Shown: in pieces, positions 2,558 to 20,940 of the stretch
Numbering within the stretch: position 1 is the first letter of the stretch
Layout: every line of letters starts with the position of its first letter
DNA from: a virus
Lineage: Duplodnaviria > Heunggongvirae > Uroviricota > Caudoviricetes
Reading direction: 5' to 3' (one strand)
Virus record (IMG/VR): IMGVR_UViG_2695420728_000009
Span: 1-26,294 of that record
Length of the DNA stretch: 26,294 nucleotides
Translations under genes and position numbers: made by a program
The notes under the pieces: model-generated
The model's database searches: none
What the model was told of the DNA's origin: nothing
The model's input: the letters and a program-made list of their open reading frames with translations, nothing else

Positions 2558-3348
2558 TTACGCCAGTTGTACGGACACGAACGCATCAGGGTCAGCCAGC
2601 AGCATCAGCGGTGCTGACTGAATCATGGTGAACTCACGCGCCGGATCGCCGGTGGTCACCCAGTTTTTCGGGTAGCGGGCAGAGGCGTTAATACCTTCGC
2701 GCTGTGCGTCCGCATCCTGAATGCAGCCATAGGTGCGCAGACCGCGTGCCTGAGAGTTCCCCAGCACCATCGTGTTGTCCGGAAGGAAGTTCTTTTTGAC
2801 GTCGTTTTCCACGTACTGTCCGGAATACACGACGATCGCCGTATCGCCATACATCCCCTTATAGGACACCGCTTCGCCCAGGTCTTTTACCGCTGTCTCC
2901 AGCTCGGAATTAGAGCCGCGACGGGTATCCAGCTTCTCCTTGACGGCTTTGAAGGAACGGAACAGCGCCCAGCCTTTCGGATCAAACACGATGATATTCA
3001 CCACTCCGCTGGCGTTCAGCGCATAGGCTTCGATATCGTCGGTCGGGTCATACGTGGACTTGTCACGCTTGCTCCACTCCGTACCACCGGACTGTGTGAT
3101 GTTGTTCGCCGCACTGCGGCCCATATCCACCTCAACCGGATCGAAGGCTTCACCGGTCATGGTGTATTTGCCCTTAAGCACAGCAGAAACTGCCTGCATC
3201 TCTTCGACCTGAGCAATGGCCAGCTCTTCGTCTCGCATGTTCTGCATGATGATGCGACGGCGGCGGTAAGCCGGGTCCGCCAGATTCTGCGGATCTTCAT
3301 CCGGCAGGCGACGCAGGGTCATCTGCGGATTCACCTCATGCTTCGGCT
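2558..3348 (-). pseudogene. E: 3' fragment of major capsid gene E (codon ~83 to native stop), separated from its 5' part by the inserted element
   Basis: Translation (V)NPQMTLRRLPDEDPQNLADPAYRRRR...FVSVQLA matches lambda gpE residues ~83-341. In-frame upstream codons give P-K-H-E-V and then a TAG at 3347..3349 where E should continue. The ORF caller's start is a GTG inside E. Confidence 0.9.
3339..3348. repeat. Left copy of the 10-bp direct repeat TGCTTCGGCT (attL-type core) at the element/E junction
   Basis: Exact 10-mer at 3339..3348 and 14528..14537, each precisely where E homology breaks; its reverse complement lies within the E codons K-P-K-H. Confidence 0.75.
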
Positions 3349-3424
3349 ACATGAGTCAAATATGAAAGGATGTGAATGATTTGATTACGTTTTAGCTATA
3401 GAATTGAAATGGAAAATCCTTGAA

Positions 3425-3445
3425 TGCAATACAACGTGCAATACA
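3425..3445 (+). promoter_or_regulatory. Tandem pair of TGCAATACA motifs (12-bp period) near the left end; candidate integrase arm-type sites
   Basis: TGCAATACA at 3425..3433 and 3437..3445. The same tandem pair in the same orientation occurs at 14380..14399 near the other end, between the int start and the right junction. Confidence 0.35.
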
Positions 3446-3482
3446 TGGATGAAAACCATCACTCATTTAACAAGAGGAATCT

Positions 3483-4388
3483 ATGCGCTCACCCAACAGA
3501 ATGCATGAACGCTCAACATTTTATAAGTATATGTCGTTGAATACCGCGAAGATTGTTCTTGATTCATGCAGCCTTAGATGGAGTTCTCCGGTCCTATTTA
3601 ATGACCCTTTTGATGTTCCAAGAGAAGTTATGCCTGGTATTAACGAAATTAATATTGGCAAAGCTTTAGCCCGCAAGTTAATAGCGGAGTTGATTACCCC
3701 CAGAGAAGACATACAAAATTTAAACCCTAGAATTAGAACAATGCTAAGTGATTTCCAAAAGTCATTTCCTTTAGGCATACCCGCAGGATTAATTGAAAGA
3801 TTTCAAGAAATGGTAAACATTCCACCAGTTGGGATTGGCGCTCCTGCGGCAATACAAGAAATGAAAGATGTCTGGCGAGGAATGCTTAATAACAGAAGGA
3901 TTTTGTGTTTATCTGAGAGCCCTATAATCACTCCTATGTGGAATCACTATGCCGATAAATATAAAGGTATAGTTATCGAATTGGATTGTGTAGACTTTCT
4001 GGATAGCGCTTGGTTAATAGCCAAACCTATGAAATACACAGATGAAATGCCTCTAACTCACACTGCTGAAGGGATGGCCGAGTTGCTTTTCATGCCAGAC
4101 AATAAGTCAATTGAATATATCAATAATGAGATAATATTCATAAAAACAGAAGAATGGGCATATGAAAGAGAGTGGAGAATTTCAACCTACGCTAGGCCAA
4201 ATAGCACTGGTCAATATAGCGACTTAAAATTTCACCCTTTTGAGTTAAAATCTGTAATACTTGGTCCTCTTTTTGATGCCAGCGAGTTCGATGAAGTCGC
4301 ATCACTAGTTAAAATGTATCCAAGAGCGAAATTATTTAAAAGTTCATTTGGGAACGACAGAAAAATATCCATAGTACCACTACCTTAA
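3483..4388 (+). CDS. DUF2971-like protein (function unknown), AT-rich cargo gene
   Basis: 301-aa ORF with N-terminal FYKY...LFNDPFD and C-terminal EREWR motifs that I recall as DUF2971 hallmarks. Markedly AT-rich relative to neighbours; convergent with the packaging module. Confidence 0.55.
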   Translation: MRSPNRMHERSTFYKYMSLNTAKIVLDSCSLRWSSPVLFNDPFDVPREVMPGINEINIGKALARKLIAELITPREDIQNLNPRIRTMLSDFQKSFPLGIPAGLIERFQEMVNIPPVGIGAPAAIQEMKDVWRGMLNNRRILCLSESPIITPMWNHYADKYKGIVIELDCVDFLDSAWLIAKPMKYTDEMPLTHTAEGMAELLFMPDNKSIEYINNEIIFIKTEEWAYEREWRISTYARPNSTGQYSDLKFHPFELKSVILGPLFDASEFDEVASLVKMYPRAKLFKSSFGNDRKISIVPLP

Positions 4389-4419
4389 AAGGTCAAATGC
4401 TTTTGACAAATAAAATCTA

Positions 4420-4445
4420 TCGCCAGTTTTACTGGCGACTTTTAA
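4420..4445. terminator. Hairpin between convergent genes (DUF2971-like and Nu1-like); likely bidirectional terminator
   Basis: TCGCCAGT-TTT-ACTGGCGA perfect 8-bp stem at 4420..4438 followed by CTTTTAA, with an A/T run on the other side. Confidence 0.5.
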
Positions 4446-4494
4446 GCAACAAAGAACCACCTAAGCACTCTTCCTACCTATGGTTTCATTTGTT

Positions 4495-5046
4495 TTAACT
4501 TCGCTGATTATCCTTGATATACCTTTCAGCCATATCTGGAATGTTATCTGAGATCTGGTAAGCTCGAATAAATGCTTTACTGACCTCCATCTTAATGAAG
4601 TCCTGATACCGTTTTTCCATGCCAGGAAACTGTCGACAGATCGCAAGTGGAAGACTATCAATGATTGCTCCAACTTCCCCAGTTAATTTCGACAAGGCAT
4701 AAGTCGCAAATGCAGTGTCAATTACCTCACCTGTTTCGCTGGCATTCTTCAGTTCCTGTGCGTCGGCCTGCGCACGCGTAAGTCGATGGCGTTCGTACTC
4801 AATAGTCCCTGGCTGGAGATCTGTCTCGCTGGCCTGCCGCAGTTCTTCAACTTCCCGGCGCAGCTTTTCGTTCTCAATTTCAGCATCCCTTTCGGCATAC
4901 CATCTTATAACGGCGGCAGAGTCATAAAGCACCTCATTACCCTTGCCACCGCCTCGCAGAACGGGCATTCCCTGTTCCTGCCAGTTCTGAATGGTACGGA
5001 TACTCGCACCGAAAATGTCAGCCAGCTGCTTTTTGTTGACTTCCAT
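4495..5046 (-). CDS. Satellite small terminase subunit, Nu1-like: N-terminal ~100 aa near-identical to helper Nu1, C-terminal domain diverged
   Basis: 183-aa translation MEVNKKQLADIFGASIRTIQNWQEQGMPVLRGGG... differs from the helper Nu1 (20171..20716) at 2 of the first ~100 residues, then diverges (NASETGEVIDTAF... versus NARDSAEVVETAF...). No large terminase gene follows. Confidence 0.85.
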   Translation of the reverse strand: MEVNKKQLADIFGASIRTIQNWQEQGMPVLRGGGKGNEVLYDSAAVIRWYAERDAEIENEKLRREVEELRQASETDLQPGTIEYERHRLTRAQADAQELKNASETGEVIDTAFATYALSKLTGEVGAIIDSLPLAICRQFPGMEKRYQDFIKMEVSKAFIRAYQISDNIPDMAERYIKDNQRS

Positions 5047-5270
5047 TGTTCATTCCACGGACAAAAACAGAGAAAGGAAACGACAGAGGCCAAAAAGCTC
5101 GCTTTCAGCACCTGTCGTTTCCTTTCTTTTCAGGGGGTATTTTAAATAAAAACATTAAGTTACGACGAAGAAGAACGGAAACGCCTTAAACCGGAAAATT
5201 TTCATAAATAGCGAAAATCCGCGCGCCTGACGCCCCGTAGCCTGTCAGATCGCCGGAAAGGACCCGCCAG
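5047..5270 (-). other. cos-like packaging site of the satellite: cosB copy with variant cosN
   Basis: 5047..5220 is identical to helper 20717..20890 apart from a single base in the R3 element. R-type TerS sites seen at 5071..5086, 5114..5129 and ~5192..5203. The cosN-equivalent 12-mer (5224..5235, CGCCTGACGCCC) differs from the helper's AGGTCGCCGCCC at 5 of 12 positions. Confidence 0.7.
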
Positions 5271-5291
5271 CCAGAGCGGGCCCTAATTTCA

Positions 5292-5675
5292 TCAACCAAT
5301 CAGCTTATAGCGACCATCCCGTGCATTGCGGCGTACACGCTCAATCTTGAGGCATAGCGCCGCATCTGGCTTTTTTGGGACAGGTACGCGGCAATATTCA
5401 GAAGCGCGAGGAATATTATTTATCCAGTCGATCACTTCACTTAAATACCAGGCCTTACGCCCTTCCGTAACCTGCACACGCTCCGGGAACTCTCCACTAG
5501 CCTCAAGGTTTAGCAGTGTACGCCGACTCAGGGTTGTAATTTCCATCACCTGATTCATATCAACAAGGCGCTCGCTTAAACACATTTTGTCAGCGATAGC
5601 TTTTAATTCCTCTACAGCTGGATTCGGGTACATCATTTCGGCAATTGGCTTAAGGTCATTGTAATCATTTTGCAT
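5292..5675 (-). CDS. AlpA/Xis-family HTH protein with N- and C-terminal extensions
   Basis: 127-aa ORF; core MNQVMEITTLSRRTLLNLEASGEFPERVQVTEGRKAWYLSEVIDWI matches the AlpA (MerR-like winged HTH) pattern. Ends 2 bp from the cos region. Confidence 0.55.
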   Translation of the reverse strand: MQNDYNDLKPIAEMMYPNPAVEELKAIADKMCLSERLVDMNQVMEITTLSRRTLLNLEASGEFPERVQVTEGRKAWYLSEVIDWINNIPRASEYCRVPVPKKPDAALCLKIERVRRNARDGRYKLIG

Positions 5676-5686
5676 TGTATCCCCCT

Positions 5687-6028
5687 TTACACACGAGCCA
5701 GCGGCTGAACAGAAATACCTGAGCCAACAAACGCTGCAATCTTTACTGACAGTTCTTTTACAGACTCAGGCCAGTTCAGAGCATCAACATTTAAGACACC
5801 TGTCTTATAGACCTGAGCCTGTGTTTTTTTCGCGGTGTCGATTTGTACAGCGGAAACATAAACCGCTTTACCTACGCTCGAACCATCCCATACCACCAGT
5901 GCACCTGTTGCATCTTCCTGCATCAGTGGCGTAAATGCAGGAATTACCCCTTTATTAGCTGAAAATATCCCCAGCGTAGTCACCAGTGCTTCAGTGCCAG
6001 CCATGAGTTCAGTGTAATGAGTAGCCAT
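5687..6028 (-). CDS. Head decoration protein, lambda gpD-like (diverged)
   Basis: 113-aa ORF; PLMQEDATGALVVWDGSS...YKTGVLNVDALNWPE...AAFVGSGISV aligns with lambda gp[19 protein letters not shown]...[15 protein letters not shown]...[10 protein letters not shown]. Confidence 0.75.
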   Translation of the reverse strand: MATHYTELMAGTEALVTTLGIFSANKGVIPAFTPLMQEDATGALVVWDGSSVGKAVYVSAVQIDTAKKTQAQVYKTGVLNVDALNWPESVKELSVKIAAFVGSGISVQPLARV

Positions 6029-6037
6029 TGCTCCCCC

Positions 6038-7084
6038 TTAGCCAATGCGAACGGTAACAAAACGATTGATGCGGGCCGGTATTGGCTGTGGTGCTGAATG
6101 TGTCTGCACATATTCAATAGCCGGATCACCAGGCACAATATAGTTTTTCGGTGCAAGTTCGGCTTTAGTCAGCCCCATTCGGATTAGCTCCGGATCCTGA
6201 ATACCGCCATAGGCGACAATCCCCTGAAGAGCCGTATTGCCAAGCACCATCAAATCAGGATCAAGGAAATGTTTTTCAGTTCCGTCCTCGTCGGTATAAC
6301 GCCCGCTGTAAACAACAATCGCAACATCGCCCATATATCCTTTAAAACTCACCGAATCACCAAGGTCTTTAAGGGCCGTTTCCAGTTCGGAATTAGAACC
6401 ACGACGGGTATCCAGAGCCTCTTTTATCGCTCTGAATGAACGGTATTTCTTCCATACATTACCGCCCATAATGATGATATTAGTGACGCCCTCACTAAAT
6501 TCTGCGTAGCTCTCAATATCATCATTTGGATCAAAAGTTTCTTTATCCTTACCTGACCACTCAGTACCGCCAGACTGAGTGATGATATTTTGTGGTTTAA
6601 TATTCCAGTCCAGCTCATAACGTTCAATACCATCGCCCTCAATGATATTTTTCCCCGTTGTGATTGCCTGAACGGCAAGCCATTCAATACGTGCACGAAT
6701 AGCTTTAGCTTGATTTACAATCGCCTGTTTAACTTTAATATTACGCGCCCCAAAAGCATTGTATTGCTCAGGTGATACACCAGCAGGGCGCACAGCTAAC
6801 TTATTTGGATCAATGCTGCTTTTCGGCTTCATATAGCCTGGACGAATTGTTTTTGATTCGTACCCTTCGTCACGTGAAACTTTACTACCCACCATAGGAG
6901 AACAAAACGCTGCAATTGGGATATTTGGATCGTCGATTGTATCAAGAATAATATCGCGCGATCCAAACATTACCGAGCGAGTAAAAAACAAACTGGTAAA
7001 CAACGCATTTAGTTGTTTTTGTACATCTACAGCATTAACCACCTGTACAAGCTGGGTAGGCGAATATAAATCAACCATACGCAT
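6038..7084 (-). CDS. Major capsid protein, lambda gpE-like (diverged; roughly half identical by eye in the C-terminal region)
   Basis: ORF 6038..7291 aligns with lambda gpE over most of its length (e.g. ITQSGGTEWSGKDKETFDPNDDIESYA... versus ITQSGGTEWSKRDKSTYDPTDDIEAYA...; TRRGSNSELETA in both). Start set at ATG 7082..7084 (MRMVDLY, matching lambda MSMYTT). Starts at 7078 or 7099 are also possible; the longer N-terminal extension has no homology. Confidence 0.85.
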   Translation of the reverse strand: MRMVDLYSPTQLVQVVNAVDVQKQLNALFTSLFFTRSVMFGSRDIILDTIDDPNIPIAAFCSPMVGSKVSRDEGYESKTIRPGYMKPKSSIDPNKLAVRPAGVSPEQYNAFGARNIKVKQAIVNQAKAIRARIEWLAVQAITTGKNIIEGDGIERYELDWNIKPQNIITQSGGTEWSGKDKETFDPNDDIESYAEFSEGVTNIIIMGGNVWKKYRSFRAIKEALDTRRGSNSELETALKDLGDSVSFKGYMGDVAIVVYSGRYTDEDGTEKHFLDPDLMVLGNTALQGIVAYGGIQDPELIRMGLTKAELAPKNYIVPGDPAIEYVQTHSAPQPIPARINRFVTVRIG

Positions 7085-7252
7085 CCTCTTTGCATTCATT
7101 AAAAATAATTGTGGATATATGCTATCACCGATATTTGTCATGCGAACACATGCAACCGAGTGCAATGTTGTATAAAGTTTTGGGGTGACAACTTCAGTGC
7201 GGACAATTAGTGTTAATATCTTCACTCCCTTTGGTCGGGATTTATGTAGCAT

Positions 7253-7283
7253 GCCGGAAAATTTATTTTTTCCGGCTTTTTTT
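7253..7283 (+). terminator. Strong hairpin followed by a T-tract, oriented antisense to the surrounding minus-strand operon
   Basis: GCCGGAAAA-TTTATT-TTTTCCGGC (9-bp stem) followed by TTTTTTT at 7277..7283. No plus-strand gene lies upstream, so its role is unclear. Confidence 0.4.
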
Positions 7284-7294
7284 ATTGGCAATAT

Positions 7295-7744
7295 TTAAAA
7301 CGGGATATCATCTCCCCATTGCTCATTATCTCCCTCTGGTGGCTGGCTTCCTTGCTGATCTGCCTGTTGTTTTGCTCTGTTCAGTGCGTCAGTAGCCTGC
7401 CCCTGTTGGCCTTTTTTGCCGCCCGGTCGCACCGATCGCGCACTGATTACGCTGTCTGCGATAACCTGCCAGCCCTGCCGCGTTTCGCCGTTCTGTCCAG
7501 TCCACTGGCTCATCTGCATGTTACCCGCCACGCTCAGGAGTTCGCCTTTGTGATGCTTTGCCAGCGCGTCGGCTTGTCTGCCAAACGCCAGGACAGATAA
7601 CCACAACGTCGCCAGACCGTCATCCGACTGACTGCAGGGCAGTGATACCGCCATACGCGCCAGCGTCATGGGGGTGCCCTTGCTGGTCTGTTTTGTCTGC
7701 GGGTCGTCCACCAACCGCCCGTAAACTGATATTTGCGCCGTCAT
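7295..7744 (-). CDS. ssb: Single-stranded DNA-binding protein (SSB)
   Basis: 149-aa ORF with OB-fold-like N-terminus, Gly/Gln-rich linker and the characteristic acidic C-terminal tail ...DDIPF. Confidence 0.85.
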   Translation of the reverse strand: MTAQISVYGRLVDDPQTKQTSKGTPMTLARMAVSLPCSQSDDGLATLWLSVLAFGRQADALAKHHKGELLSVAGNMQMSQWTGQNGETRQGWQVIADSVISARSVRPGGKKGQQGQATDALNRAKQQADQQGSQPPEGDNEQWGDDIPF

Positions 7745-7998
7745 GCTGCCTGCTCTCCGGACTTAATATTGATTGTTGTCACTTCCTCCGCTTCAGCAAT
7801 CTCCCGTTCGGTCAGCGTGGCAAAGTTTGCAGCCGCCGTTGTCATGAATGCGCTTATCAGTTCGGGATGTGCTTTCGCGTATCCTTCCCCGGCGTTGCGG
7901 TCTATTGCCTTAATCGCCACCCTTAGCCAGTGTTCAGCCATATCAAGGGCGCGGTAATGTGGCTTTATATGTTTGTTCAGTTTTCCTGATGTGTGCAT
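7741..7998 (-). CDS. Hypothetical protein (85 aa), translationally coupled to ssb
   Basis: ORF overlaps the ssb start by 4 nt in the same operon; no family recognised. Confidence 0.45.
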   Translation of the reverse strand: MHTSGKLNKHIKPHYRALDMAEHWLRVAIKAIDRNAGEGYAKAHPELISAFMTTAAANFATLTEREIAEAEEVTTINIKSGEQAA

Positions 7999-8043
7999 TT
8001 TTATTTTTACCCCCTCGTTTAAAAAGTTTTTTGTGCACCACCA

Positions 8044-8274
8044 CCTTGTCTACCTTGTCTACCTGATTAGTTATCAGGCCAGTAATGGCGCGGGTTTCAG
8101 GGAGGTAGACAGCCCCAAATAGCTGTCTACCTCATCTCTACCCGTCTCCTTACCTGTCTACAAAAATGGGTAGATAAGGTAGATAACAGGTAGACAGTGA
8201 AAAATAGTTATCTACCTGCATTAATACATTGAAATAAAAGTATTTTCTTTCAGTCAGGTAGACAAGGTAGATAA
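8044..8274. repeat. Iteron array, GGTAGA(C/T)A in both orientations (10 or more copies); putative satellite origin of replication
   Basis: Copies of TGTCTACC / GGTAGACA / GGTAGATA at ~8046, 8055, 8103, 8123, 8153, 8169, 8178, 8190, 8208, 8257 and 8266, in a non-coding stretch immediately 3' of the primase-helicase gene. Confidence 0.7.
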
Positions 8275-8287
8275 CCATTGCCATTTT

Positions 8288-10039
8288 TTATAAAAACGCA
8301 TCGCAATCATCAGTAGTCGTTGCGTTGGTCTGCGTGACTCCCTTAACTTTTCGCGTAATATATTCATATCCGTAAACTTTCGCCGCTGACCTCATAGCCT
8401 TTCCGAACTCATTCACGCTCAAACATTTCCCCTTTCCTGTGTATGCCATGAAGGCCATATAGACACGGTAAAGGCTGTTTCTGGTCGTGTACTTCACGGT
8501 GTCACCACCACCGCCCATCATTAGCCCACGAGCTTCCTCCAGAAACTCCAGCGCCGCGCAAAGCTCAACAACCGGATCCGTTTGCTGCTTTATTGCCAGA
8601 GCTTCATCACCGTCACGCTGTTCCAGTAATAAAGCCCGTGCCTTTTCAGGGGCAGCAAAATTAGCCAGCAAGCGGCGGATAATTACGGGGATTTCTGCCG
8701 CTATCTTTTCCGGTAATTCCTTGTCTTTTTCGTCCTCCCTTACAATGTTGTCGAACCGGAAAATCACCCGACGGCGTGACACACCTCCGGCCCGTTCGGT
8801 AAAGATCATCGGGTCGTTATTGGTTGCCAGTACCACCGCCCTTATTATCGTCGTGAATCGCTTCTCATATTTCGGGTTAATTTCAACGGGATCGCCTCCC
8901 GTGATTTTCTTGATGCCCGTGCCTTCCCCCGTATATTTCGGCTGATCGGCAAGGACGATAAGACGACTCCCGACAACCTGCGCGCGCCCTCCTGCATCAT
9001 CGAGTGATGTCATCTCCGCGCTTACGGTGTTCTGTTTGCCAGCAAGCAGGGTGGCAATATGGGTAAATGTACTCTTACCGCTTCCCCCGTCTCCGGTGGC
9101 CTCAATGAACATCTGCCAGTCGTAGCGGTTCGCCATAATCATGTATAACGCGGCACATATACGCATCATCTTACGCGGGTCTTTTCTTGCAGCATGTTCA
9201 AGCCATTTATGGAAATTTGGCGCATTATCGCGGATGTTTTCCCCTGCTACTGGTGGCGTGTACTCAATGCCATTGTGCGTGGTGCTCCAGTGCTCCGGCG
9301 AGTGCGGAGAAAATTCCCCCGTTTTCAGGTTAAGCACACCATTAGTGAACGGTAGCAAATCACCGGACGGCTCCCCCATGGGGTCGGCAATAACTTTTAA
9401 CGCTTCCACGGCGTTATTGATTACACGTTTGCTGAACGTGGCCCTGTGCTCTGAATAGATCGCCACCATTTCGCGGCTCAGCTCCATTGTGCTGACCGGA
9501 CACCATACCCCGCCGCGCCATACGTGGACGATTTCACTTTCTGCATGAACACACACACCATCAAAGCGATCGGCAAGTAGTTGTGCACGTTCACTGTCTG
9601 CCATCTGTGAAAGTTGCGCCTTTTGCTTCGTCGGAAGATTAAGCACCAGACTTTCCCCACGCTCGCATTCCTCTTTGAGTCGCGGCAACTGCTCGGATAA
9701 ATCCACTGGGCTGGTGTCAGTAATCCCCGCGTATTCGTGTACGGTCTTCACTCCAGCCACAGCCAGTAACGTAACAATCTGCGTCATGCTGTGCTCTGTG
9801 ATATGTCCTGCGCGGTAAACACGCACACACTGACGATCTTCATCAATGATCCGGTAATCGGTGATATTTTTCAGTTGCTCATCAGCCAGCACGACAGGCG
9901 GCACATCGTCGGCGGCAATATGTTTACCCGCCCATTCCCGCCACTCTTTCGCATGGCTCCACGCATCACTACCTGCAAAGATGATTACCTCTGTCAGTCT
10001 GTCGCGTGGCTGTTTTTTTAAGTTCGGTGCCAGTTTCAT
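8288..10039 (-). CDS. Replication initiation protein: primase-helicase (P4 alpha-like C-terminal / D5_N-SF3 helicase type)
   Basis: 583-aa ORF with Walker A EATGDGGSGKST and the overall pattern of phage/plasmid primase P4-family C-terminal domains; N-terminal region resembles a toprim-like domain. Confidence 0.85.
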   Translation of the reverse strand: MKLAPNLKKQPRDRLTEVIIFAGSDAWSHAKEWREWAGKHIAADDVPPVVLADEQLKNITDYRIIDEDRQCVRVYRAGHITEHSMTQIVTLLAVAGVKTVHEYAGITDTSPVDLSEQLPRLKEECERGESLVLNLPTKQKAQLSQMADSERAQLLADRFDGVCVHAESEIVHVWRGGVWCPVSTMELSREMVAIYSEHRATFSKRVINNAVEALKVIADPMGEPSGDLLPFTNGVLNLKTGEFSPHSPEHWSTTHNGIEYTPPVAGENIRDNAPNFHKWLEHAARKDPRKMMRICAALYMIMANRYDWQMFIEATGDGGSGKSTFTHIATLLAGKQNTVSAEMTSLDDAGGRAQVVGSRLIVLADQPKYTGEGTGIKKITGGDPVEINPKYEKRFTTIIRAVVLATNNDPMIFTERAGGVSRRRVIFRFDNIVREDEKDKELPEKIAAEIPVIIRRLLANFAAPEKARALLLEQRDGDEALAIKQQTDPVVELCAALEFLEEARGLMMGGGGDTVKYTTRNSLYRVYMAFMAYTGKGKCLSVNEFGKAMRSAAKVYGYEYITRKVKGVTQTNATTTDDCDAFL

Positions 10040-10335
10040 TTTTTGCCCCTGAATGCGTTAATCATGCTTTTCATTTTCTGGATGTTTCCCCGCGCTTTTT
10101 CCCTGCTGATGGGCTTACTGCGGGGTGCGGCATATACCAGGGAAAAATCACGCCGGAACTGATAAACAGGCATCACGCAGTCATAGCTATACCCCTCACG
10201 GCGGTAAGTGATGCGCCGTTCTGCCACGCCTTTAATCGTTACCGTGCCGCCGTATTTATCGCGGTAAATATCGCCGTTCATAAATTCAGGCCGAGCGGGG
10301 CCGCTGGCAATAAAGCCAGAATTTTTCATTTCCAT
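10036..10335 (-). CDS. Hypothetical protein (99 aa), coupled to the primase-helicase gene
   Basis: 4-nt overlap with the primase start, same strand; no family recognised. Confidence 0.5.
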   Translation of the reverse strand: MEMKNSGFIASGPARPEFMNGDIYRDKYGGTVTIKGVAERRITYRREGYSYDCVMPVYQFRRDFSLVYAAPRSKPISREKARGNIQKMKSMINAFRGKK

Positions 10336-10352
10336 ATTATTTATTCCTCGAC

Positions 10353-10574
10353 TTAACTCGACTTATTTGATAGCAGGGCACTATTTATTGCGTCATTGAG
10401 TTTTTCTGCTGATTCATCAATAAGTGACAACAGGCCATAAGCAATATTTGCATCTTCATTGTCATTTATGCAATCAAGCCACATATTTAATATTGCTTTT
10501 GCTGAATTATTTAAAGTTAATGAACTTTCTGCACATGCTAACAATTTAAAAAAGACTTCCCGTTCTGTATTCAT
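10353..10574 (-). CDS. Hypothetical small protein (73 aa), AT-rich
   Basis: Compact in-operon ORF; no recognisable motif. Confidence 0.4.
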   Translation of the reverse strand: MNTEREVFFKLLACAESSLTLNNSAKAILNMWLDCINDNEDANIAYGLLSLIDESAEKLNDAINSALLSNKSS

Positions 10575-10766
10575 TTAATCCCCCACCAGCTTACTTTCTT
10601 CCTCAATCAGGAAACTAGCGACACTTCCCGAAAGGCGCGCCAGTAGGCTCGCCAGCGCGGATATATCAGCATCTGTAATTTTGTTCGGGTATACCTCAAG
10701 AAGGCGGCAAATAATTTCTGTCTGGTGCGCACGTTCAGCGGCTTCGTGTAATGTGATTTCCTGCAT
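10575..10766 (-). CDS. Hypothetical small protein (63 aa)
   Basis: Abuts the neighbouring ORFs with no gap; no recognisable motif. Confidence 0.4.
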   Translation of the reverse strand: MQEITLHEAAERAHQTEIICRLLEVYPNKITDADISALASLLARLSGSVASFLIEEESKLVGD

Positions 10767-10951
10767 TAATGCACCTCTTTTAATTCATACACTGCTGAAA
10801 TAATGACTTGTGATAAGCCATATTCTGATGATTCGCTTCTCACCGCAGCAATAGCCGTCTGAACATTAACAGCCTTCACGTTCTGAGTGATACCAATTGT
10901 GTGGCCCAGTGGGTTAACAGCTCGGGCAAATACACGGAAGGTTTTAAGCAC
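10766..10951 (-). CDS. Hypothetical small protein (61 aa)
   Basis: Tightly packed in the same operon; no recognisable motif. Confidence 0.35.
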   Translation of the reverse strand: MLKTFRVFARAVNPLGHTIGITQNVKAVNVQTAIAAVRSESSEYGLSQVIISAVYELKEVH

Positions 10952-11207
10952 GGCACACCTCCTGACGAATACGGGCGGCGAATATCATCACGTAGCCAGT
11001 TGGGGATTGCTGGCGGGCTTCCTGTTCGCTGGCGGCCTCGATGTGTATTACGCGTGGTTGTGCGGTGCTCAGGGCGATAAAACGCCAGATGTATTTATTC
11101 AGGTTGTGCGAATCCCGCCCTTGCGGGTGTGTGGTATGATTTCTCATAGCTACCTCGATACTGTTGCTATCGTTGGTGGTTAGACGCCCTGTATGTGTTG
11201 CGAGCAC
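10944..11207 (-). CDS. Hypothetical protein (87 aa or shorter), first gene of the leftward operon
   Basis: ORF begins just downstream of the divergent promoter region 11208..11286; an internal start (MRNHTTHP...) is possible. Confidence 0.35.
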   Translation of the reverse strand: MLATHTGRLTTNDSNSIEVAMRNHTTHPQGRDSHNLNKYIWRFIALSTAQPRVIHIEAASEQEARQQSPTGYVMIFAARIRQEVCRA

Positions 11208-11243
11208 TGCAGGGCGTTGTTATATAGCAATAAAACATGATAA

Positions 11244-11286
11244 GGTGTGTACCTATCAAGAATCATACTAAGCAATAGGTACACAC
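11244..11286. promoter_or_regulatory. Perfect 12-bp inverted repeat (GTGTGTACCTAT ... ATAGGTACACAC) in the divergent promoter region; candidate operator
   Basis: Arms at 11245..11256 and 11275..11286 separated by 18 bp; the right arm ends at the ATG of the RHH gene and overlaps its ribosome-binding site. Confidence 0.45.
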
Positions 11287-11481
11287 ATGTCAACTATCAT
11301 TCAACGTGATAAACAACCGAAAGGTGCAGGTAAAGCACCAGCATTCCAAGTCCGTATTAACCCAGAATTAAAAGAACAAATGGTTAATGTCGCTGCCAAA
11401 GAAGGGATGAGCTTAGGTAACTGGCTAAAAGAACTGGCTCGTGCCGAACTAATAAAACAAGGAATAACACCTAAAGGCTGA
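11287..11481 (+). CDS. Small ribbon-helix-helix-like DNA-binding protein (YlcI/YnfO-like pattern)
   Basis: 64-aa ORF; FQVRINPELKEQMVNVAAKEGMSLGNWLKELARAEL fits a beta-strand-helix-helix (Arc/MetJ-like) pattern and resembles the helper moron 21105..21338 (IRFPNQMIEQINIALDQKGYGNFSAWVIEACRRRL). Confidence 0.55.
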   Translation: MSTIIQRDKQPKGAGKAPAFQVRINPELKEQMVNVAAKEGMSLGNWLKELARAELIKQGITPKG

Positions 11482-11504
11482 TAATTTGCATAAAGGATTC
11501 TTCT

Positions 11505-12854
11505 ATGACAACAAGTCACAAAATGCTAGAAATCAGTAAAGAACAATTTGATGTATTTTTCTATGGTCGTACACCATACGTAAAAACCTTTTCGGAGGAA
11601 ATCTGTTGGTTCAAATTTATAAAGGATGATGTCACGATCTTAGCAACAATTGTTTTTTGTAAAATAGATAATGATTACAACGCTATATTTCTAGGTAGGG
11701 ATTTAGATAAAAAATTTAGAGCGATTAAAGTAATTGTATCCCGTGAATCTAAAGATGATTTAATTACTGATATGGAAAAAGCCATACCAGAGCTATTATC
11801 ACTACACAAGAACGGTTGTTTTATACAGGGTGACGAATCAGAGTCGGCATTTTCAATATTCCTAGCCAAAGTTCCAGAACATAAAAAAAACGTTTATCTA
11901 AGAATGCTACTTGAGGAACCCAAACACTATCCTGCATTTATTGTTATGCAAGAGTTAGCTTATTGGTGTAAAGATCCTGATGGAATATTCATCAGAGATT
12001 TCCAGAGTGCTTCATTTAACTCTCGCTTATTCGAACTTTATCTAAACGCAGTTTTCTACGAAATGGATTTCGTAATATGCAGAGATTATGCTCAACCTGA
12101 TTATATTATCTCAAAAAATGGCATTGATATTGCTGTAGAAGCTGCCACAGTTGCAGAACAAGAGGAACCTACCGAGAAATTGATACTTGATCATGAGGCA
12201 GTAGAAGATCTTCAGAGATATGTAAAAGAACAAATGCCATTCAAATTTGCCCGCACTCTATTAAAGAAAGTTAGGCATAAACCTGAACCCTTAAAATTAT
12301 GCTATTGGGAACTAGATCATACAAAAGGAAAGCCTTTCATTATTGCTTTACACGATTACTCACGCAGATTTTCGATGAGTATATCAATGCCAGCACTACA
12401 AAGCTATCTGTATGGTGTAGATATGGATTCTGGAAGTAAAATTGAACAACATTTATTTGAAAATCGAAGTATACAATCTAATTTTTTCGGCTCTAATAAA
12501 AATGAGAATGTCTCAGCCATATTACTTGCGACACATGCCACCATCCCAAAATTTGATAGGATGGGAGTAGTGGCAGGGATTGAACAAAAAAATGTCAAAT
12601 CCATCGTTAGAGGTATTAAAACTGATGAAGGCTGTACCCCAATGCCTTTTACTGCTCTTGTCAATGCACCTTCATATCAAGAACCATGGTGTACAGCAAT
12701 ATACATGTTTCATAATCCGAAGGCATTAAATCCTATACGCCCTGAATTATTCCCAAGAGTTATTCATATTTTTGAAGAAGATGGAGAAATAGTTCAATAC
12801 TTACCACCTAATTATATAATCTCATCAACTACGCACGTATTTGAATTTAAGTGA
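11505..12854 (+). CDS. Large unknown protein (449 aa), AT-rich cargo; candidate defence or toxin effector
   Basis: Long clean ORF 23 bp downstream of the RHH gene; very low GC compared with flanking satellite genes. No family recognised by eye; a weak PD-(D/E)xK-like stretch (QPDYIISKNGIDIAVEAA) is noted without confidence. Confidence 0.7.
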   Translation: MTTSHKMLEISKEQFDVFFYGRTPYVKTFSEEICWFKFIKDDVTILATIVFCKIDNDYNAIFLGRDLDKKFRAIKVIVSRESKDDLITDMEKAIPELLSLHKNGCFIQGDESESAFSIFLAKVPEHKKNVYLRMLLEEPKHYPAFIVMQELAYWCKDPDGIFIRDFQSASFNSRLFELYLNAVFYEMDFVICRDYAQPDYIISKNGIDIAVEAATVAEQEEPTEKLILDHEAVEDLQRYVKEQMPFKFARTLLKKVRHKPEPLKLCYWELDHTKGKPFIIALHDYSRRFSMSISMPALQSYLYGVDMDSGSKIEQHLFENRSIQSNFFGSNKNENVSAILLATHATIPKFDRMGVVAGIEQKNVKSIVRGIKTDEGCTPMPFTALVNAPSYQEPWCTAIYMFHNPKALNPIRPELFPRVIHIFEEDGEIVQYLPPNYIISSTTHVFEFK

Positions 12855-12859
12855 TTTCA

Positions 12860-12886
12860 AATCCTATGGGTTTACCCCATAGGATT
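12860..12886. terminator. 11-bp perfect-stem hairpin between convergent genes (449-aa cargo and alpA)
   Basis: AATCCTATGGG-TTTA-CCCATAGGATT at 12860..12886, 6 bp after the cargo stop codon. Confidence 0.5.
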
Positions 12887-12905
12887 ACATCCACTGTCTA
12901 AATTC

Positions 12906-13127
12906 TTACCACTCTCCCCTAATCCATGCCTGCACTTCTGAAAGACGATATGCAACAGCAGTGGAACCAATCTTGATCCGCTTAGGAAATTTTCCTTCCT
13001 TCTCCAGCTTCCAGCGTGTGCTGTTCGCAAGAGTGGTTAGCTCCCGACATTCTTTCTCACGGATCATACGATCGATATTAGGAATGTACTCCAGACCCTT
13101 TTTATCGACAATTGCCATTTTTTTCAT
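12906..13127 (-). CDS. alpA: AlpA-family transcriptional regulator / excisionase-like protein
   Basis: 73-aa ORF; RELTTLANSTRWKLEKEGKFPKRIKIGSTAVAYRLSEVQAWI matches the AlpA HTH signature; immediately downstream of int on the same strand. Confidence 0.85.
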   Translation of the reverse strand: MKKMAIVDKKGLEYIPNIDRMIREKECRELTTLANSTRWKLEKEGKFPKRIKIGSTAVAYRLSEVQAWIRGEW

Positions 13128-13128
13128 G

Positions 13129-14364
13129 TTAACCAGCCTTTTGTTTGAGGATTGTCACTTTTGAATCAGCACCTGCGATGCTATTGAGATATGTAGTCCA
13201 GAGTTCCAGAGCATCCAGTTTTTTAGCCATAAACTTACTCCGGTTGTAAACACCTGCCACGCCAGGTAGCGCATGGCCTAACAGTTGTTCTACTACATAA
13301 AATTCAACACCGAGATCACTTAGATGAGTAGATAGCGTTCTTCTAAGGTCGTGTAGTGACCATTGTTTTTCATGGCCCAAACGTTTACCGATTTTCCCCC
13401 CAATCTTGCTTACGCTTTCTCTAATTCGCAGACTTCCCAGCACATAACCAGTATGTTTTGTCTCTTCGTGAACATCCGTTACCCACTGTCGTAGAATTTC
13501 AGGTACTGGTCTGACGATTTCAACACCAGTTTTTGAGTGATCTTTTGGTACAGTCCAAACCCAACTTTCGAGATCCCATTCGCTCCATTCTGATAATCGG
13601 GCTTCACTCATTCGACATCCAAATACTGTACAAAGCACAAACATTTTTCGCGTGTATTCAGACATTAGTTTTAAATCAGGCTCGACAAAAATTGCCTTCC
13701 AGAGCTGGCCGAGTTCGGCTTCATCCAGAACCCGATCCCGCTTACCTGCAATCTGCCCCACATCACTCATGCGCAAATCCTTTAAAGCATCACACGTCGC
13801 GTACTGGCGTACCCGACAAAAACGAAGAGCTAATTTAGTGTCAGAAAAAACATACGCCGCCATAACTGGTGCATTACGTTTAATTCGGTCAAAACAGTCC
13901 AGCCATTCATATAGGTGAGTGTCATTTACGGGCAAATGACCGATATAGGGAAAGATATGCTTTCGAAATCTGCCAAGCGTTACAGCATGAGTTTTACGAC
14001 GCACCTTACAGTAATTTTCATACCAGTAATTTAGTGCATCCTCCACTGTGACCGGCTTTAAGCGTTCTTCAGCCTGAATCTTAATCTGGATACGCGGATC
14101 ACGTTTGTCAGCCAACCAACCACGGCACTCGTCGCGCTTTTCCCTTGCCTGTTTGAGTGACATATCAGGATATTTACCCAACGTTAGCCAGACCGGAGCA
14201 GCCCGGCCACCTGCTAACCTGTAGAAGAAAACAAAGCTCACAGCCCCTTTAGTACTCACACGAATAGAAAGCCCCTTTCCATCAGCAATGGTGATCTGCT
14301 TTTCTCTGGGTTTCCCCAGATATCCTTTAAGCGCTTTGTCGCTCAGTTTGTTCTCGCCAGCCAT
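13129..14364 (-). CDS. int: Tyrosine site-specific integrase (P4-type)
   Basis: N-terminus MAGENKLSDKALKGYLGKPREKQITIADGKGLSIRVSTKG... typical of the P4-integrase N-terminal domain; C-terminal catalytic region with HDLRRT and LLGH motifs and a Tyr-containing tail. Start set at ATG 14362..14364; the 17 upstream codons are extension. Confidence 0.9.
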   Translation of the reverse strand: MAGENKLSDKALKGYLGKPREKQITIADGKGLSIRVSTKGAVSFVFFYRLAGGRAAPVWLTLGKYPDMSLKQAREKRDECRGWLADKRDPRIQIKIQAEERLKPVTVEDALNYWYENYCKVRRKTHAVTLGRFRKHIFPYIGHLPVNDTHLYEWLDCFDRIKRNAPVMAAYVFSDTKLALRFCRVRQYATCDALKDLRMSDVGQIAGKRDRVLDEAELGQLWKAIFVEPDLKLMSEYTRKMFVLCTVFGCRMSEARLSEWSEWDLESWVWTVPKDHSKTGVEIVRPVPEILRQWVTDVHEETKHTGYVLGSLRIRESVSKIGGKIGKRLGHEKQWSLHDLRRTLSTHLSDLGVEFYVVEQLLGHALPGVAGVYNRSKFMAKKLDALELWTTYLNSIAGADSKVTILKQKAG

Positions 14365-14379
14365 TTTTAGCCCCAAAAA

Positions 14380-14399
14380 GCAATACAAGCTGCAATACA
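14380..14399 (+). promoter_or_regulatory. Second tandem pair of GCAATACA motifs (12-bp period); candidate integrase arm-type sites / int promoter region
   Basis: GCAATACA at 14380..14387 and TGCAATACA at 14391..14399; same motif, spacing and orientation as the pair at 3425..3445. Confidence 0.35.
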
Positions 14400-14526
14400 G
14401 AGATGATTGCAACACACAGATAACGAGGAAAATTCAGTGAAAGCACCAGATAAACTTATTCTTTATTATCAAAAGATTAAGTGTAAAAACCAGCAACTAC
14501 ACGAAAGCCTCAGAAAGCCATGCTAA

Positions 14527-14772
14527 GTGCTTCGGCTTGACATATCCCGGTGTAAATTCAGAGGTGGAGCCGCCACGGGAGCGGATAACCTCACCGGAAA
14601 CAATCGGCGAAACGTACAGCGCCATGTTTACCAGTCCCGGAATTTGTGAGAGATAGACTTTCTCCGTGGTGAAGGGATAGCTCTCACGGAAAAAGAGACG
14701 CAGAAACAGCGGATCAAACTTAAATTTCTTCTCATTTGCCGCCAGCAGCTGGGCGGTTGTGTACATCGACAT
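14527..14772 (-). pseudogene. E: 5' fragment of major capsid gene E (codons 1-82), truncated by the element
   Basis: From ATG 14770..14772: MSMYTTAQLLAANEKKFKFDPLFLRLFFRESYPFTTEKVYLSQIPGLVNMALYVSPIVSGEVIRSRGGSTSEFTPGYVKPKH matches the lambda gpE N-terminus, then reads into element sequence (LAWLSEAFV, stop at 14497). Confidence 0.9.
14528..14537. repeat. Right copy of the 10-bp direct repeat TGCTTCGGCT (attR-type core)
   Basis: Exact match to 3339..3348; E homology ends at 14527. Confidence 0.75.
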
Positions 14773-14827
14773 AAAAAAATCCCGTAAAAAAAGCCGCACA
14801 GGCGGCCTTTAGTGATGAAGGGTAAGG

Positions 14828-20196: not shown

Positions 20197-20716
20197 TCAG
20201 CAACCCCGGTATCAGTTCATCCAGCGCGGCTGCTTTGTTCATGGCTTTGATGATATCCCGTTTCAGGAAATCAACATGTCGGTTTTCCAGTTCCGGAAAA
20301 CGCCGCTGCACCGACAGGGGGATCCCGTCGAGAATACTGGCAATTTCACCTGCGATCCGCGACAACACGAAAGTACAGAATGCGGTTTCCACCACTTCAG
20401 CGGAGTCTCTGGCATTCTTCAGTTCCTGTGCGTCGGCCTGCGCACGCGTAAGTCGATGGCGTTCGTACTCAATAGTCCCTGGCTGGAGATCTGCCTCGCT
20501 GGCCTGCCGCAGTTCTTCAACCTCCCGGCGCAGCTTTTCGTTCTCAATTTCAGCATCCCTTTCGGCATACCATTTTATGACGGCGGCAGAGTCATAAAGC
20601 ACCTCATTACCCTTGCCACCGCCTCGCAGAACGGGCATTCCCTGTTCCTGCCAGTTCTGAATGGTACGGATACTCGCACCGAAAATGTCAGCCAGCTGCT
20701 TTTTGTTGACTTCCAT
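20171..20716 (-). CDS. Nu1: Terminase small subunit Nu1 (helper copy)
   Basis: 181-aa translation matches lambda Nu1 throughout (MEVNKKQLADIFGASIRTIQNWQEQGMPVLRGGGKGNEVLYDSAAVIKWYAERD...SEYIEQSG). Confidence 0.95.
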
Positions 20717-20940
20717 TGTTCATTCCACGGACAAAAACAGAGAAAGGAAACGACAGAGGCCAAAAAGCTCGCTTTCAGCACCTGTCGTTTCCTTTCTTTT
20801 CAGGGGGTATTTTAAATAAAAACATTAAGTTACGACGAAGAAGAACGGAAACACCTTAAACCGGAAAATTTTCATAAATAGCGAAAACCCGCGAGGTCGC
20901 CGCCCCGTAACCTGTCGGATCGCCGGAAAGGACCCGCAAA
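20717..20940 (-). other. cos: cos site of the helper prophage (cosB R-sites plus cosN cohesive-end sequence at 20894..20905)
   Basis: Reverse complement of 20894..20905 is GGGCGGCGACCT, the lambda 12-nt cohesive end, flanked by ...CGCG and CGTAACCTGTCGGATCGCC... as at the lambda genome ends. R-type sites (CTGTCGTTTCCTTTCT, AGAAAGGAAACGACAG) lie between cosN and the Nu1 start. Confidence 0.88.

What the first reader, a model, noticed from the sequence alone, without database searches (positions are those of the whole stretch)
3425..3445. Matching tandem GCAATACA pairs just inside both ends of the element: candidate integrase arm sites
TGCAATACA occurs twice at 12-bp spacing at 3425..3445 (~80 bp inside the left junction) and again twice at 14380..14399 (~130 bp inside the right junction, just upstream of the int start), all in the same orientation. 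Symmetric placement of a repeated motif near both att junctions is what is expected of arm-type binding sites for a tyrosine integrase, and independently supports the proposed element boundaries.
Basis: seen in the sequence. Interest (0 to 1): 0.45.

Follow-up and report, generated by a model that had tools for sequence, protein, structure and literature searches.

The report
Integrase arm sites of a helper-embedded satellite
The two matching pairs of GCAATACA are real and almost certainly dock the satellite's integrase at both ends of the element, but this "doubled motif" and this explanation were published in 2023, so the finding is correct and not new.

Summary
GCAATACA occurs as two 12-bp-spaced tandem pairs, at 3426/3438 and 14380/14392, all on the + strand. 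No random sequence reproduced this pattern.

The pairs lie 81.5 and 131.5 bp from the centre of a 10-bp att identity block, TGCTTCGGCT, at 3339-3348 and 14528-14537. That block bounds an 11.2-kb phage satellite inserted in the major capsid gene of a lambda-like E. coli prophage.

This is the "11capE"-type helper-embedded PICI of Mageeney et al. 2023. They reported the same doubled motif, tgTGTATTGCantgTGTATTGCa, at 81±2 and 132±2 bp. They proposed binding by integrase arm domains, AlpA or an unknown protein.

My survey of about 130 related loci favours the integrase.
- The motif is the only conserved feature of the integrase-distal arm.
- Sister clades carry different doubled motifs with the same 12-bp lag and the same 233-235 bp arm-to-arm spacing. 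Four of these variants share one fis core.
- Motif identity tracks the integrase N-terminal arm-binding domain. It does not track AlpA or the rest of the integrase.

Binding itself is untested. Verdict: already known, interpretation supported, low interest.

The parts
3339..3348 (.). attL identity block (crossover region), TGCTTCGGCT
   Evidence: This is the only shared 10-mer between the two junction zones. In the alignment with an intact gpE gene of phage phiSTEC1575-Stx2k, homology breaks exactly here. The published 11capE element also has a 10-bp block.
3425..3447 (-). Integrase-distal (left) doubled motif. It reads caTGTATTGCAcgtTGTATTGCA on the - strand, giving two candidate arm-type half-sites at a 12-bp lag, 81.5 bp from the att centre.
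   Evidence: Located. It is the only conserved feature among 40 distinct distal arms. It is invariant in Kosakonia and Cedecea elements whose surrounding sequence has diverged.
14379..14401 (-). Integrase-proximal (right) doubled motif. It reads tcTGTATTGCAgctTGTATTGCt on the - strand, 131.5 bp from the att centre and 16-35 nt upstream of the int ATG.
   Evidence: Located. It is present upstream of int in all 90 HE-class loci.
14408..14416 (-). Candidate third, weaker arm site (TGTGTTGCA on the - strand), 17 nt upstream of the proximal pair
   Evidence: It is a one-mismatch copy. A 'gTTgCa' element is conserved at this position in 37 distinct proximal arms. Other sub-clades carry a full third copy.
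14467..14479 (+). IHF-consensus match (TATCAAAAGATTA) between the proximal arm sites and the core; a candidate DNA-bending site
   Evidence: It is the only WATCAANNNNTTR match in the window. The consensus sits at the same fixed offset (-81) in 30 of 61 HE proximal arms and at -81 or -79 in fis-type classes, against a background of one hit per 10.9 kb.
14528..14537 (.). attR identity block, TGCTTCGGCT
13129..14364 (-). Tyrosine integrase, 411 aa. Residues 1-100 (about 14065-14364) form the arm-binding domain.
   Evidence: It hits PF13356 (E 3.7e-19) and PF00589. It is 100% identical to a protein cluster of 1098 member sequences. The N-terminus matches PDB 3JU0 and 3JTZ. The AlphaFold model shows strands 24-29, 32-36, 42-48 and 58-65 followed by helices.
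12906..13127 (-). AlpA-family excisionase/regulator, the rival candidate binder
   Evidence: PF05930, E 2.7e-15.
14458..14487 (-). Weak sigma-70-like promoter match upstream of the proximal pair (TTTACA, 18 nt, AAGAAT)
   Evidence: This is a consensus match only.
3349..14527 (-). The 11.2-kb helper-embedded satellite (HE-PICI, 11capE type). On the - strand it carries int, alpA, primase, SSB, a capsid-E homologue, a decoration protein, a second AlpA-like gene and a Nu1 homologue, co-oriented with the interrupted gpE gene and the helper's late genes. Two cargo genes, PD-T7-1 (11505-12854) and DUF2971 (3483-4388), lie on the + strand.
   Evidence: and the published description.

Best explanation
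The four TGTATTGCA copies are arm-type binding sites for the N-terminal domain of the satellite's own tyrosine integrase.

The integrase binds two kinds of DNA site. Its C-terminal domains bind and cut at the core, inside TGCTTCGGCT. Its N-terminal domains bind the tandem half-sites on the two arms. In the excised circle the two doubled motifs lie about 235 bp apart around the core. With a bend in the longer arm, probably at the IHF-like site at 14467-14479, the arms fold back, so that the four subunits of the integrase tetramer each hold one arm half-site.

In the integrated state each junction keeps one pair. A complete set of four sites is therefore assembled only when attL and attR come together for excision, which restores the helper's capsid gene.

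The proximal pair lies between the incoming transcription and the int ribosome-binding site. It may therefore also let the integrase dampen its own expression.

Shown here: the motifs, their geometry, their conservation and their covariation. Inferred: binding, the bend, tetramer stoichiometry and autoregulation.
For: 1. The integrase has the Arm DNA-binding domain PF13356. It is sequence-homologous to the solved arm-binding domains 3JU0 and 3JTZ and is modelled as a beta-sheet plus helix.

2. All 90 loci of this motif class have the proximal pair, and 62 of the 68 holding the full 11.2 kb downstream have a co-oriented distal pair. Only one extra pair, and no inverted pair, occurs in 1.52 Mb.

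3. The geometry is fixed for four different cores in capsid, portal and protease genes. The core centre lies 134-137 nt from the proximal pair, and the distal pair lies 76-82 nt from the centre.

4. In 40 distinct distal arms only the doubled motif is conserved.

5. Sister clades have different doubled motifs at the same place and the same 12-bp lag: GTGTATCAC, GTGYAGTCAGT and TGTATAAACA. Each recurs on the second arm, 233-234 bp away in attP-like junctions or at the far end of the integrated element. The Salmonella class even keeps an asymmetric pair, TGTATTGCA/TGTATAGC, on both arms. A further class, TGGAACAAC, has an 11-12 bp lag, and its second arm was not found.

6. Four of these motif variants use the same fis core, so the motif is independent of core specificity.

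7. Motif class tracks the integrase N-domain.
- TGTATAAAC versus TGGAACAA classes: AlpA 87% identical, integrase residues 126-end 79%, N-domain only 60%.
- TRTATCAC versus GTGCAGTCA classes: AlpA 72%, rest of integrase 72%, N-domain 60%.
- HE versus Salmonella same-motif class: N-domain 63%, but rest of integrase 44% and AlpA 40%.
- Sliding windows put the divergence in the first 75-100 residues.
- N-domain clusters at 70% identity never mix distinct motif classes (only the one-base variants GTGCAGTCA and GTGTAGTCA fall together), whereas AlpA clusters and clusters of the rest of the integrase do.
- Class-discriminating substitutions concentrate in residues 1-60.

8. An IHF consensus sits at a fixed offset between the arm sites and the core.

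9. The authors who first described the motif list integrase arm domains as their first candidate.

10. Arm-type sites overlapping an int promoter, with autorepression, are documented for IntS of the KplE1 prophage (PMC2951348).
Against: - No binding data exist for this integrase or for any close relative in the literature I could search.
- In the circular form the distal arm, the core, the proximal arm and the 5' end of int are contiguous within about 600 bp. A single recombination tract could therefore co-transfer the motifs and the N-domain without any functional coupling.
- Only three independent clade contrasts support the covariation, and the loci are phylogenetically related.
- The second arm of the TGGAACAA class could not be located.
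- The IHF-consensus match is present in only about half of the HE proximal arms, and no clear equivalent was found on the distal arm.
- Within the HE clade itself, AlpA is also fairly conserved (72% mean identity). The exclusion of AlpA therefore rests on the sister clades.
Confidence: 0.8

Rival explanations
1. The doubled motifs are binding sites for the satellite's AlpA protein, acting as an excisionase (recombination directionality factor) or as a transcriptional activator of int.
For: alpA lies directly downstream of int. AlpA-family proteins act as excisionases and regulators and typically bind direct repeats (established knowledge). The HE-PICI paper names AlpA as an alternative binder. 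The proximal pair sits right upstream of int.
Against: AlpA proteins that are 87% identical, with identical helix-turn-helix regions, accompany two unrelated motifs, TGTATAAACA and TGGAACAAC. AlpA proteins that are 72% identical accompany GTGTATCAC and GTGCAGTCAGT. Excisionase sites are normally confined to one arm, whereas here identical pairs occur on both arms. The position is fixed relative to the core, not relative to promoters.
Confidence: 0.1
2. The motifs are operators or promoter elements for the adjacent genes (int on the right, the DUF2971 gene on the left), bound by some other satellite, helper or host regulator.
For: Both pairs lie in intergenic DNA just upstream of an ORF start: 38 nt before the ATG at 3483 and 16 nt before the int ATG.
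Against: The gene next to the distal arm differs between elements in identity and in strand, yet the motif stays at the same distance from the core. No promoter-like site was found at the left end. The second AlpA-like gene is absent from several sub-clades that keep the motif. A host factor cannot explain clade-specific motifs in elements of the same host family that share one fis site.
Confidence: 0.05
3. The match is a chance repeat, or a leftover of a duplicated end sequence with no function.
For: Two further single copies of the 8-mer occur inside ORFs of the element. About a third of the doubled-motif hits in viral contigs come from unrelated 12-nt repeats.
Against: Neither 100 dinucleotide shuffles nor 300 random sequences reproduce the pattern. 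The motif is conserved across genera while its flanks decay to zero information.
Confidence: 0.01

Closest known systems
The 'doubled motif' of helper-embedded PICIs (Mageeney et al., NAR Genom Bioinform 2023, PMC10111431); prototype Eco567.11capE in E. coli NRG857c
   Same: The sequence is the same (tgTGTATTGCantgTGTATTGCa), with two co-oriented copies at 81±2 and 132±2 bp from the attP centre. The window gives 81.5 and 131.5 bp. The target gene (capsid E of a lambdoid prophage), the 10-bp identity block, the 11-kb size and the int-alpA-pri gene order also match.
   Different: Nothing essential differs for the motif itself. The window's element carries different cargo (PD-T7-1) and a Nu1-family gene, whereas the paper says 11capE lacks terS. 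The paper calls the motif unique to HE-PICIs. I find that only the sequence is unique, not the architecture.
Arm-type sites of phage lambda Int (P1, P2, P'1-P'3) with IHF bends
   Same: The logic of an integrase binding both core and arm sites is the same (established knowledge). Short tandem sites unrelated to the core lie on both arms, within an attP of about 240-250 bp. A bending-protein consensus sits between arm and core. Two or three sites lie on one arm and two on the other.
   Different: The N-domain family differs (PF13356 here). The site sequence differs. All sites here are co-oriented, with a strict 12-bp lag. The int 5' end, rather than its 3' end, abuts attP. Binding here is not demonstrated.
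IntS arm-type P' sites overlapping the intS promoter in the KplE1 (CPS-53) prophage (Panis et al., PLoS Genet 2010, PMC2951348)
   Same: Arm-type sites lie between the core and the int start codon, so the recombination region and int expression signals overlap, and the integrase represses its own gene.
   Different: The IntS sites share a TAAA motif and are interleaved with TorI (RDF) sites. The target is a tRNA gene. Autoregulation is only inferred for the window's element.
Arm-binding domains of the HPI and HAI7 island integrases (PDB 3JTZ, 3JU0)
   Same: The N-terminal residues 17-98 align with these solved domains at E 3e-6 and 3e-5, so the fold family is the same.
   Different: Identity is low. 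The DNA sites of those integrases were not compared here.

Membership tests
Helper-embedded PICI (HE-PICI, 11capE type) | Integrated inside a late gene of a lambdoid prophage and co-oriented with it | tested here: met
   gpE fragments lie at 2558-3334 and 14497-14799 on the - strand and flank the element. int, alpA, pri and the capsid homologue are also on the - strand. Terminase, portal, protease and decoration genes lie upstream.
Helper-embedded PICI (HE-PICI, 11capE type) | int-alpA-pri module with an integrase of the HE clade | tested here: met
   The integrase is 100% identical to a cluster of 1098 E. coli member sequences, and its relatives at 53-58% identity sit in portal and protease genes. 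I did not compare it directly with the NRG857c sequence.
Helper-embedded PICI (HE-PICI, 11capE type) | Doubled TGTATTGC motif at 81±2 and 132±2 bp from the attP centre | tested here: met
   The window gives 81.5 and 131.5 bp, matching the published values.
Arm-type integrase binding sites | The integrase carries a separate N-terminal arm-binding domain | tested here: met
   PF13356 at E 3.7e-19, PDB homologues and the structural model.
Arm-type integrase binding sites | Repeated sites, different from the core sequence, on both arms within about 250 bp of attP | tested here: met
   There are four exact copies and one degenerate copy. The reconstructed attP span is about 255 bp.
Arm-type integrase binding sites | Site sequence co-evolves with the arm-binding domain and is independent of core specificity | tested here: met
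   Four motif variants share one fis core. N-domain clusters match the motif classes, whereas AlpA clusters and clusters of the rest of the integrase do not.
Arm-type integrase binding sites | Accessory bending-protein site between the arm sites and the core | tested here: inconclusive
   An IHF consensus lies at 14467-14479 and at a fixed offset in about half of the HE proximal arms. Nothing clear was found on the distal arm.
Arm-type integrase binding sites | Direct, specific binding by the integrase N-domain, and a requirement for recombination | not testable with these tools
   This needs a gel shift or footprint and excision assays. No such data were found in the literature searched.

The most novel reading that the evidence does not exclude
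The doubled motif is one allele of a family-wide arm-site code, not a peculiarity of helper-embedded satellites. PICI integrases of this family all use two tandem half-sites at a 12-bp lag on each arm, with the arms 233-235 bp apart. The cassette formed by the N-terminal domain and its arm sites has been exchanged repeatedly, independently of core specificity: four motif variants share a single fis core. This could keep co-resident satellites from cross-excising one another. It could also have let the HE clade retarget new prophage genes while keeping one arm scaffold. The published statement that the motif architecture is unique to HE-PICIs would need revising.
Probability: 0.6. Interest if true: 0.45.

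Novelty: already known. Interest (0 to 1): 0.22.

Why it matters
For this window, the motifs pin down the ends and the recombination machinery of a satellite that interrupts its helper phage's capsid gene. Excision through these sites is what restores the helper's ability to make capsids.

The finding itself repeats a published observation and a published hypothesis. What the present analysis adds is a comparative argument that favours the integrase over AlpA as the binder. It also gives a set of natural swaps between N-domain and arm site that would make the binding specificity easy to test.

Tried and rejected
- The genome-contig scan with the integrase returned only three loci, so diversity had to come from protein look-ups and viral contigs.
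- The proximal-arm alignment of the three closest genera was too conserved overall (89%) to serve as a footprint. The distal arm served that purpose instead.
- A strict search for specificity-determining residues (at least 85% conserved within a class, at least three different residues among classes) gave only four positions. A relaxed per-bin measure was used instead.
- Searching the distal arm for an IHF site gave nothing consistent.
- The distal arm of the TGGAACAA class was not found. Those loci carry extra inverted copies and a remnant of another arm, so this contrast rests on the proximal arm only.
- The promoter scan found only one weak match on the right and none on the left.
- The two singleton GCAATACA copies at 3849 and 6760 lie inside ORFs and are not conserved in position or strand in the Kosakonia and Cedecea elements. 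I treat them as chance.
- The first run of the statistics script timed out and was rerun.

Full report
**1. The observation**

GCAATACA occurs exactly at 3426, 3438, 14380 and 14392, all on the + strand, with a 12-bp lag in each pair. Two isolated copies lie inside ORFs, at 3849 (+) and 6760 (-). That is six matches against 1.09 expected, and none of 100 shuffles reached six. The similarity extends over 30 nt: 3423-3452 and 14377-14406 are 83% identical. This is the only 8-mer in the window that forms two separate tandem pairs, and none of 300 random sequences of the same composition had one. A one-mismatch copy, GCAACACA at 14409-14416, lies next to the right pair.

**2. The context**

The window is E. 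coli DNA. An 11.2-kb element lies between two copies of TGCTTCGGCT, at 3339-3348 and 14528-14537. Alignment with an intact major capsid gene of a lambda-like phage shows that homology breaks exactly at this block.

On the - strand the element encodes:
- a tyrosine integrase with an Arm DNA-binding domain (PF13356) and a catalytic domain (PF00589);
- an AlpA-family protein;
- a D5-type primase;
- an SSB;
- a capsid-E homologue and a decoration protein;
- a second AlpA-like protein;
- a Nu1 homologue.

The helper's terminase, portal, protease and decoration genes lie upstream on the same strand. The integrase starts at the ATG at 14364. The start is fixed by a 411-aa protein cluster that is 100% identical and by a one-base indel between the motif and the ATG in relatives, which rules out a longer reading frame. 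The right pair is therefore 16-35 nt upstream of the int start.

**3. The finding is already published**

Mageeney et al. (NAR Genom Bioinform 2023, PMC10111431) described helper-embedded PICIs (HE-PICIs). The founding member is 11capE, an 11-kb satellite in capsid gene E of a lambdoid prophage of E. coli NRG857c, with a 10-bp identity block.

They reconstructed attP sites and reported a "doubled motif", tgTGTATTGCantgTGTATTGCa. Two co-oriented copies lie 81±2 and 132±2 bp from the attP centre. [quoted passage not shown]

In the window the 23-nt motifs occupy 3425-3447 and 14379-14401. That is 81.5 and 131.5 bp from the block centres, an exact fit. No later paper on this motif is in the searchable library.

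**4. Independent check of conservation**

I collected loci through the integrase: three genomes, 16 contigs carrying homologues from the protein search, and 160 viral contigs.
- All 90 loci of the TGTATTGC class have the tandem pair 20-87 nt upstream of int.
- 62 of them also have a co-oriented pair about 10-11 kb downstream.
- 22 are too short to reach the far end, and six lack the far pair within the 11.2 kb held. Two of those six are degraded remnants.
- Across 1.52 Mb there is one extra pair and no inverted pair.

The distances are fixed for four unrelated cores, in the capsid gene, two portal sites and the protease gene. The core centre lies 134-137 nt from the proximal pair, and the distal pair lies 76-82 nt from the centre.

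In 40 distinct distal arms the doubled motif is the only conserved feature, and its flanks carry almost no information. The same holds for the Kosakonia and Cedecea elements.

An unbiased scan of viral contigs for TGTATTGCNNNNTGTATTGC returned 113 new stretches. Of these, 72 are HE-PICI DNA, and in 37 of the 38 that contain an integrase homologue the motif lies just upstream of int. The other 41 are mostly unrelated 12-nt repeats.

**5. What is new here: the architecture is family-wide**

The paper states that the motif is absent from other PICIs, including fis PICIs. That is literally true of the sequence. Related integrases outside the HE clade nevertheless carry a doubled motif at the same place:
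- GTGTATCAC, 12-bp lag;
- GTGCAGTCAGT or GTGTAGTCAGT, 12-bp lag;
- TGTATAAACA, 12-bp lag;
- TGGAACAAC, 11-12 bp lag.

For all classes except TGGAACAAC, the same variant recurs on the second arm. It lies either at the far end of the integrated element (L095, L096, L128, L135, L138, L123) or 233-234 bp upstream in attP-like junctions (L103, L107, L129, L151, L166). The HE attP spacing is 235 bp. A Salmonella class keeps an asymmetric pair, TGTATTGCA/TGTATAGC, on both arms. Four of the motif variants share the same fis core, GTATCAGTTCATGCCGTA. The arm motif is therefore independent of the core site.

**6. Which protein covaries with the motif**

Mean identities between motif classes:

| Contrast | AlpA | Integrase residues 126-end | Integrase N-domain |
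|---|---|---|---|
| TGTATAAAC vs TGGAACAA (different motifs) | 87% | 79% | 60% (about 90% within a class) |
| TRTATCAC vs GTGCAGTCA (different motifs) | 72% | 72% | 60% |
| HE vs Salmonella class (shared motif) | 40% | 44% | 63% |

- Sliding windows confine the divergence to the first 75-100 residues.
- N-domain clusters at 70% identity never mix distinct motif classes (only the one-base variants GTGCAGTCA and GTGTAGTCA fall together). AlpA clusters and clusters of the rest of the integrase do mix them.
- Class-discriminating substitutions concentrate in residues 1-60. The model places the beta-sheet of the arm-binding domain there.
- The domain aligns with the solved arm-binding domains 3JU0 and 3JTZ.

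This argues for the integrase N-domain and against AlpA.

**7. Supporting detail**

The only IHF-consensus match in the window is at 14467-14479, between the proximal pair and the core. The consensus recurs at the same offset in 30 of 61 HE proximal arms and in fis-type classes, against a background of one match per 10.9 kb. A weak promoter-like site lies at 14487-14458 on the - strand. The proximal pair would then sit in the int leader. This recalls the IntS arm sites that overlap the intS promoter and mediate autorepression in KplE1. Autoregulation here is inference only.

**8. Caveats**

- No binding experiment exists.
- In the circular form the two arms, the core and the 5' end of int are contiguous within about 600 bp. 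One recombination tract could move the motifs and the N-domain together without any functional link.
- Only three independent contrasts support the covariation.
- The TGGAACAA class has extra inverted copies and no identified second arm.

**9. Verdict**

The arm-site interpretation is supported with a probability of about 0.8, but the finding is already known. Its residual value is the evidence that the architecture extends beyond HE-PICIs and that the motif follows the integrase N-domain.

Noticed in passing
window 11505-12854 (+): A 449-aa ORF in a low-GC (about 33-35%) cargo spot next to alpA is a full-length PD-T7-1 anti-phage defence protein (PADLOC, E 1e-153). It has no Pfam or NCBIfam hit. 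The closest E. coli relatives carry SWIM and DUF2971 genes at this spot instead.
   Followed up: partly
window 3483-4388 (+): The DUF2971 ORF next to attL matches the PADLOC candidate defence family PDC-S31 (E 3e-31). The satellite therefore seems to carry defence cargo at both variable spots.
   Followed up: partly
window 4709-5267 and 20379-20937: The satellite and the helper share 559 bp at 95.7% identity, covering the 5' part of the Nu1 gene and the region upstream of it, presumably cos. The satellite has a complete Nu1-family ORF (4495-5046; PF07471, E 4e-84), although the HE-PICI paper says 11capE lacks terS.
   Followed up: partly
window 8046-8279: Dense direct and inverted GGTAGACA/GGTAGATAA repeats lie just downstream of the primase gene, between it and the SSB-side genes. 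They look like replication-origin iterons (D5, D15, I1, I3, I8).
   Followed up: no
loci L103, L107, L129, L151, L166 (about -300 to -1 relative to int): These viral contigs hold fis-PICI junctions in the attP arrangement: distal arm, fis core, proximal arm, int. They are either excised circles or tandem arrays, and they were useful for measuring the 233-234 bp arm spacing.
   Followed up: partly
L154 and L158, -290 to -20 relative to int: Besides three direct TGGAACAAC copies near int, there are three inverted copies at a 9-bp lag (-139 to -121). There is also a separate GTGGGGCACA doubled motif (12-bp lag) inside a stretch homologous to another class's proximal arm. It may be a remnant of a replaced integrase module.
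   Followed up: no
L228 7252-7557: An unrelated metagenomic contig has two co-oriented doubled TGTATTGCA motifs 258 bp apart, plus one inverted copy, directly beside the 3' end of a 456-aa ORF that I read as a tyrosine integrase from its sequence alone (no family search was run; it is not a relative at E 1e-20). It looks like an attP with a convergently similar arm motif.
   Followed up: partly
L097 and L098 (Serratia): An integrase-alpA remnant with three TGTATTGC copies sits in a portal gene. The rest of the satellite is missing and is followed by transporter and type VI secretion genes, so this is a decayed HE-PICI.
   Followed up: no
att identity block in capE-type loci: The 10-bp block varies between elements: AGCCGAAGCA, AACCCAAGCA, AGCCCAAGCA and AGCCTAAGCA. 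In each locus listed, attL and attR carry the same variant, so the element and its target phage match at synonymous capsid codon positions.
   Followed up: no
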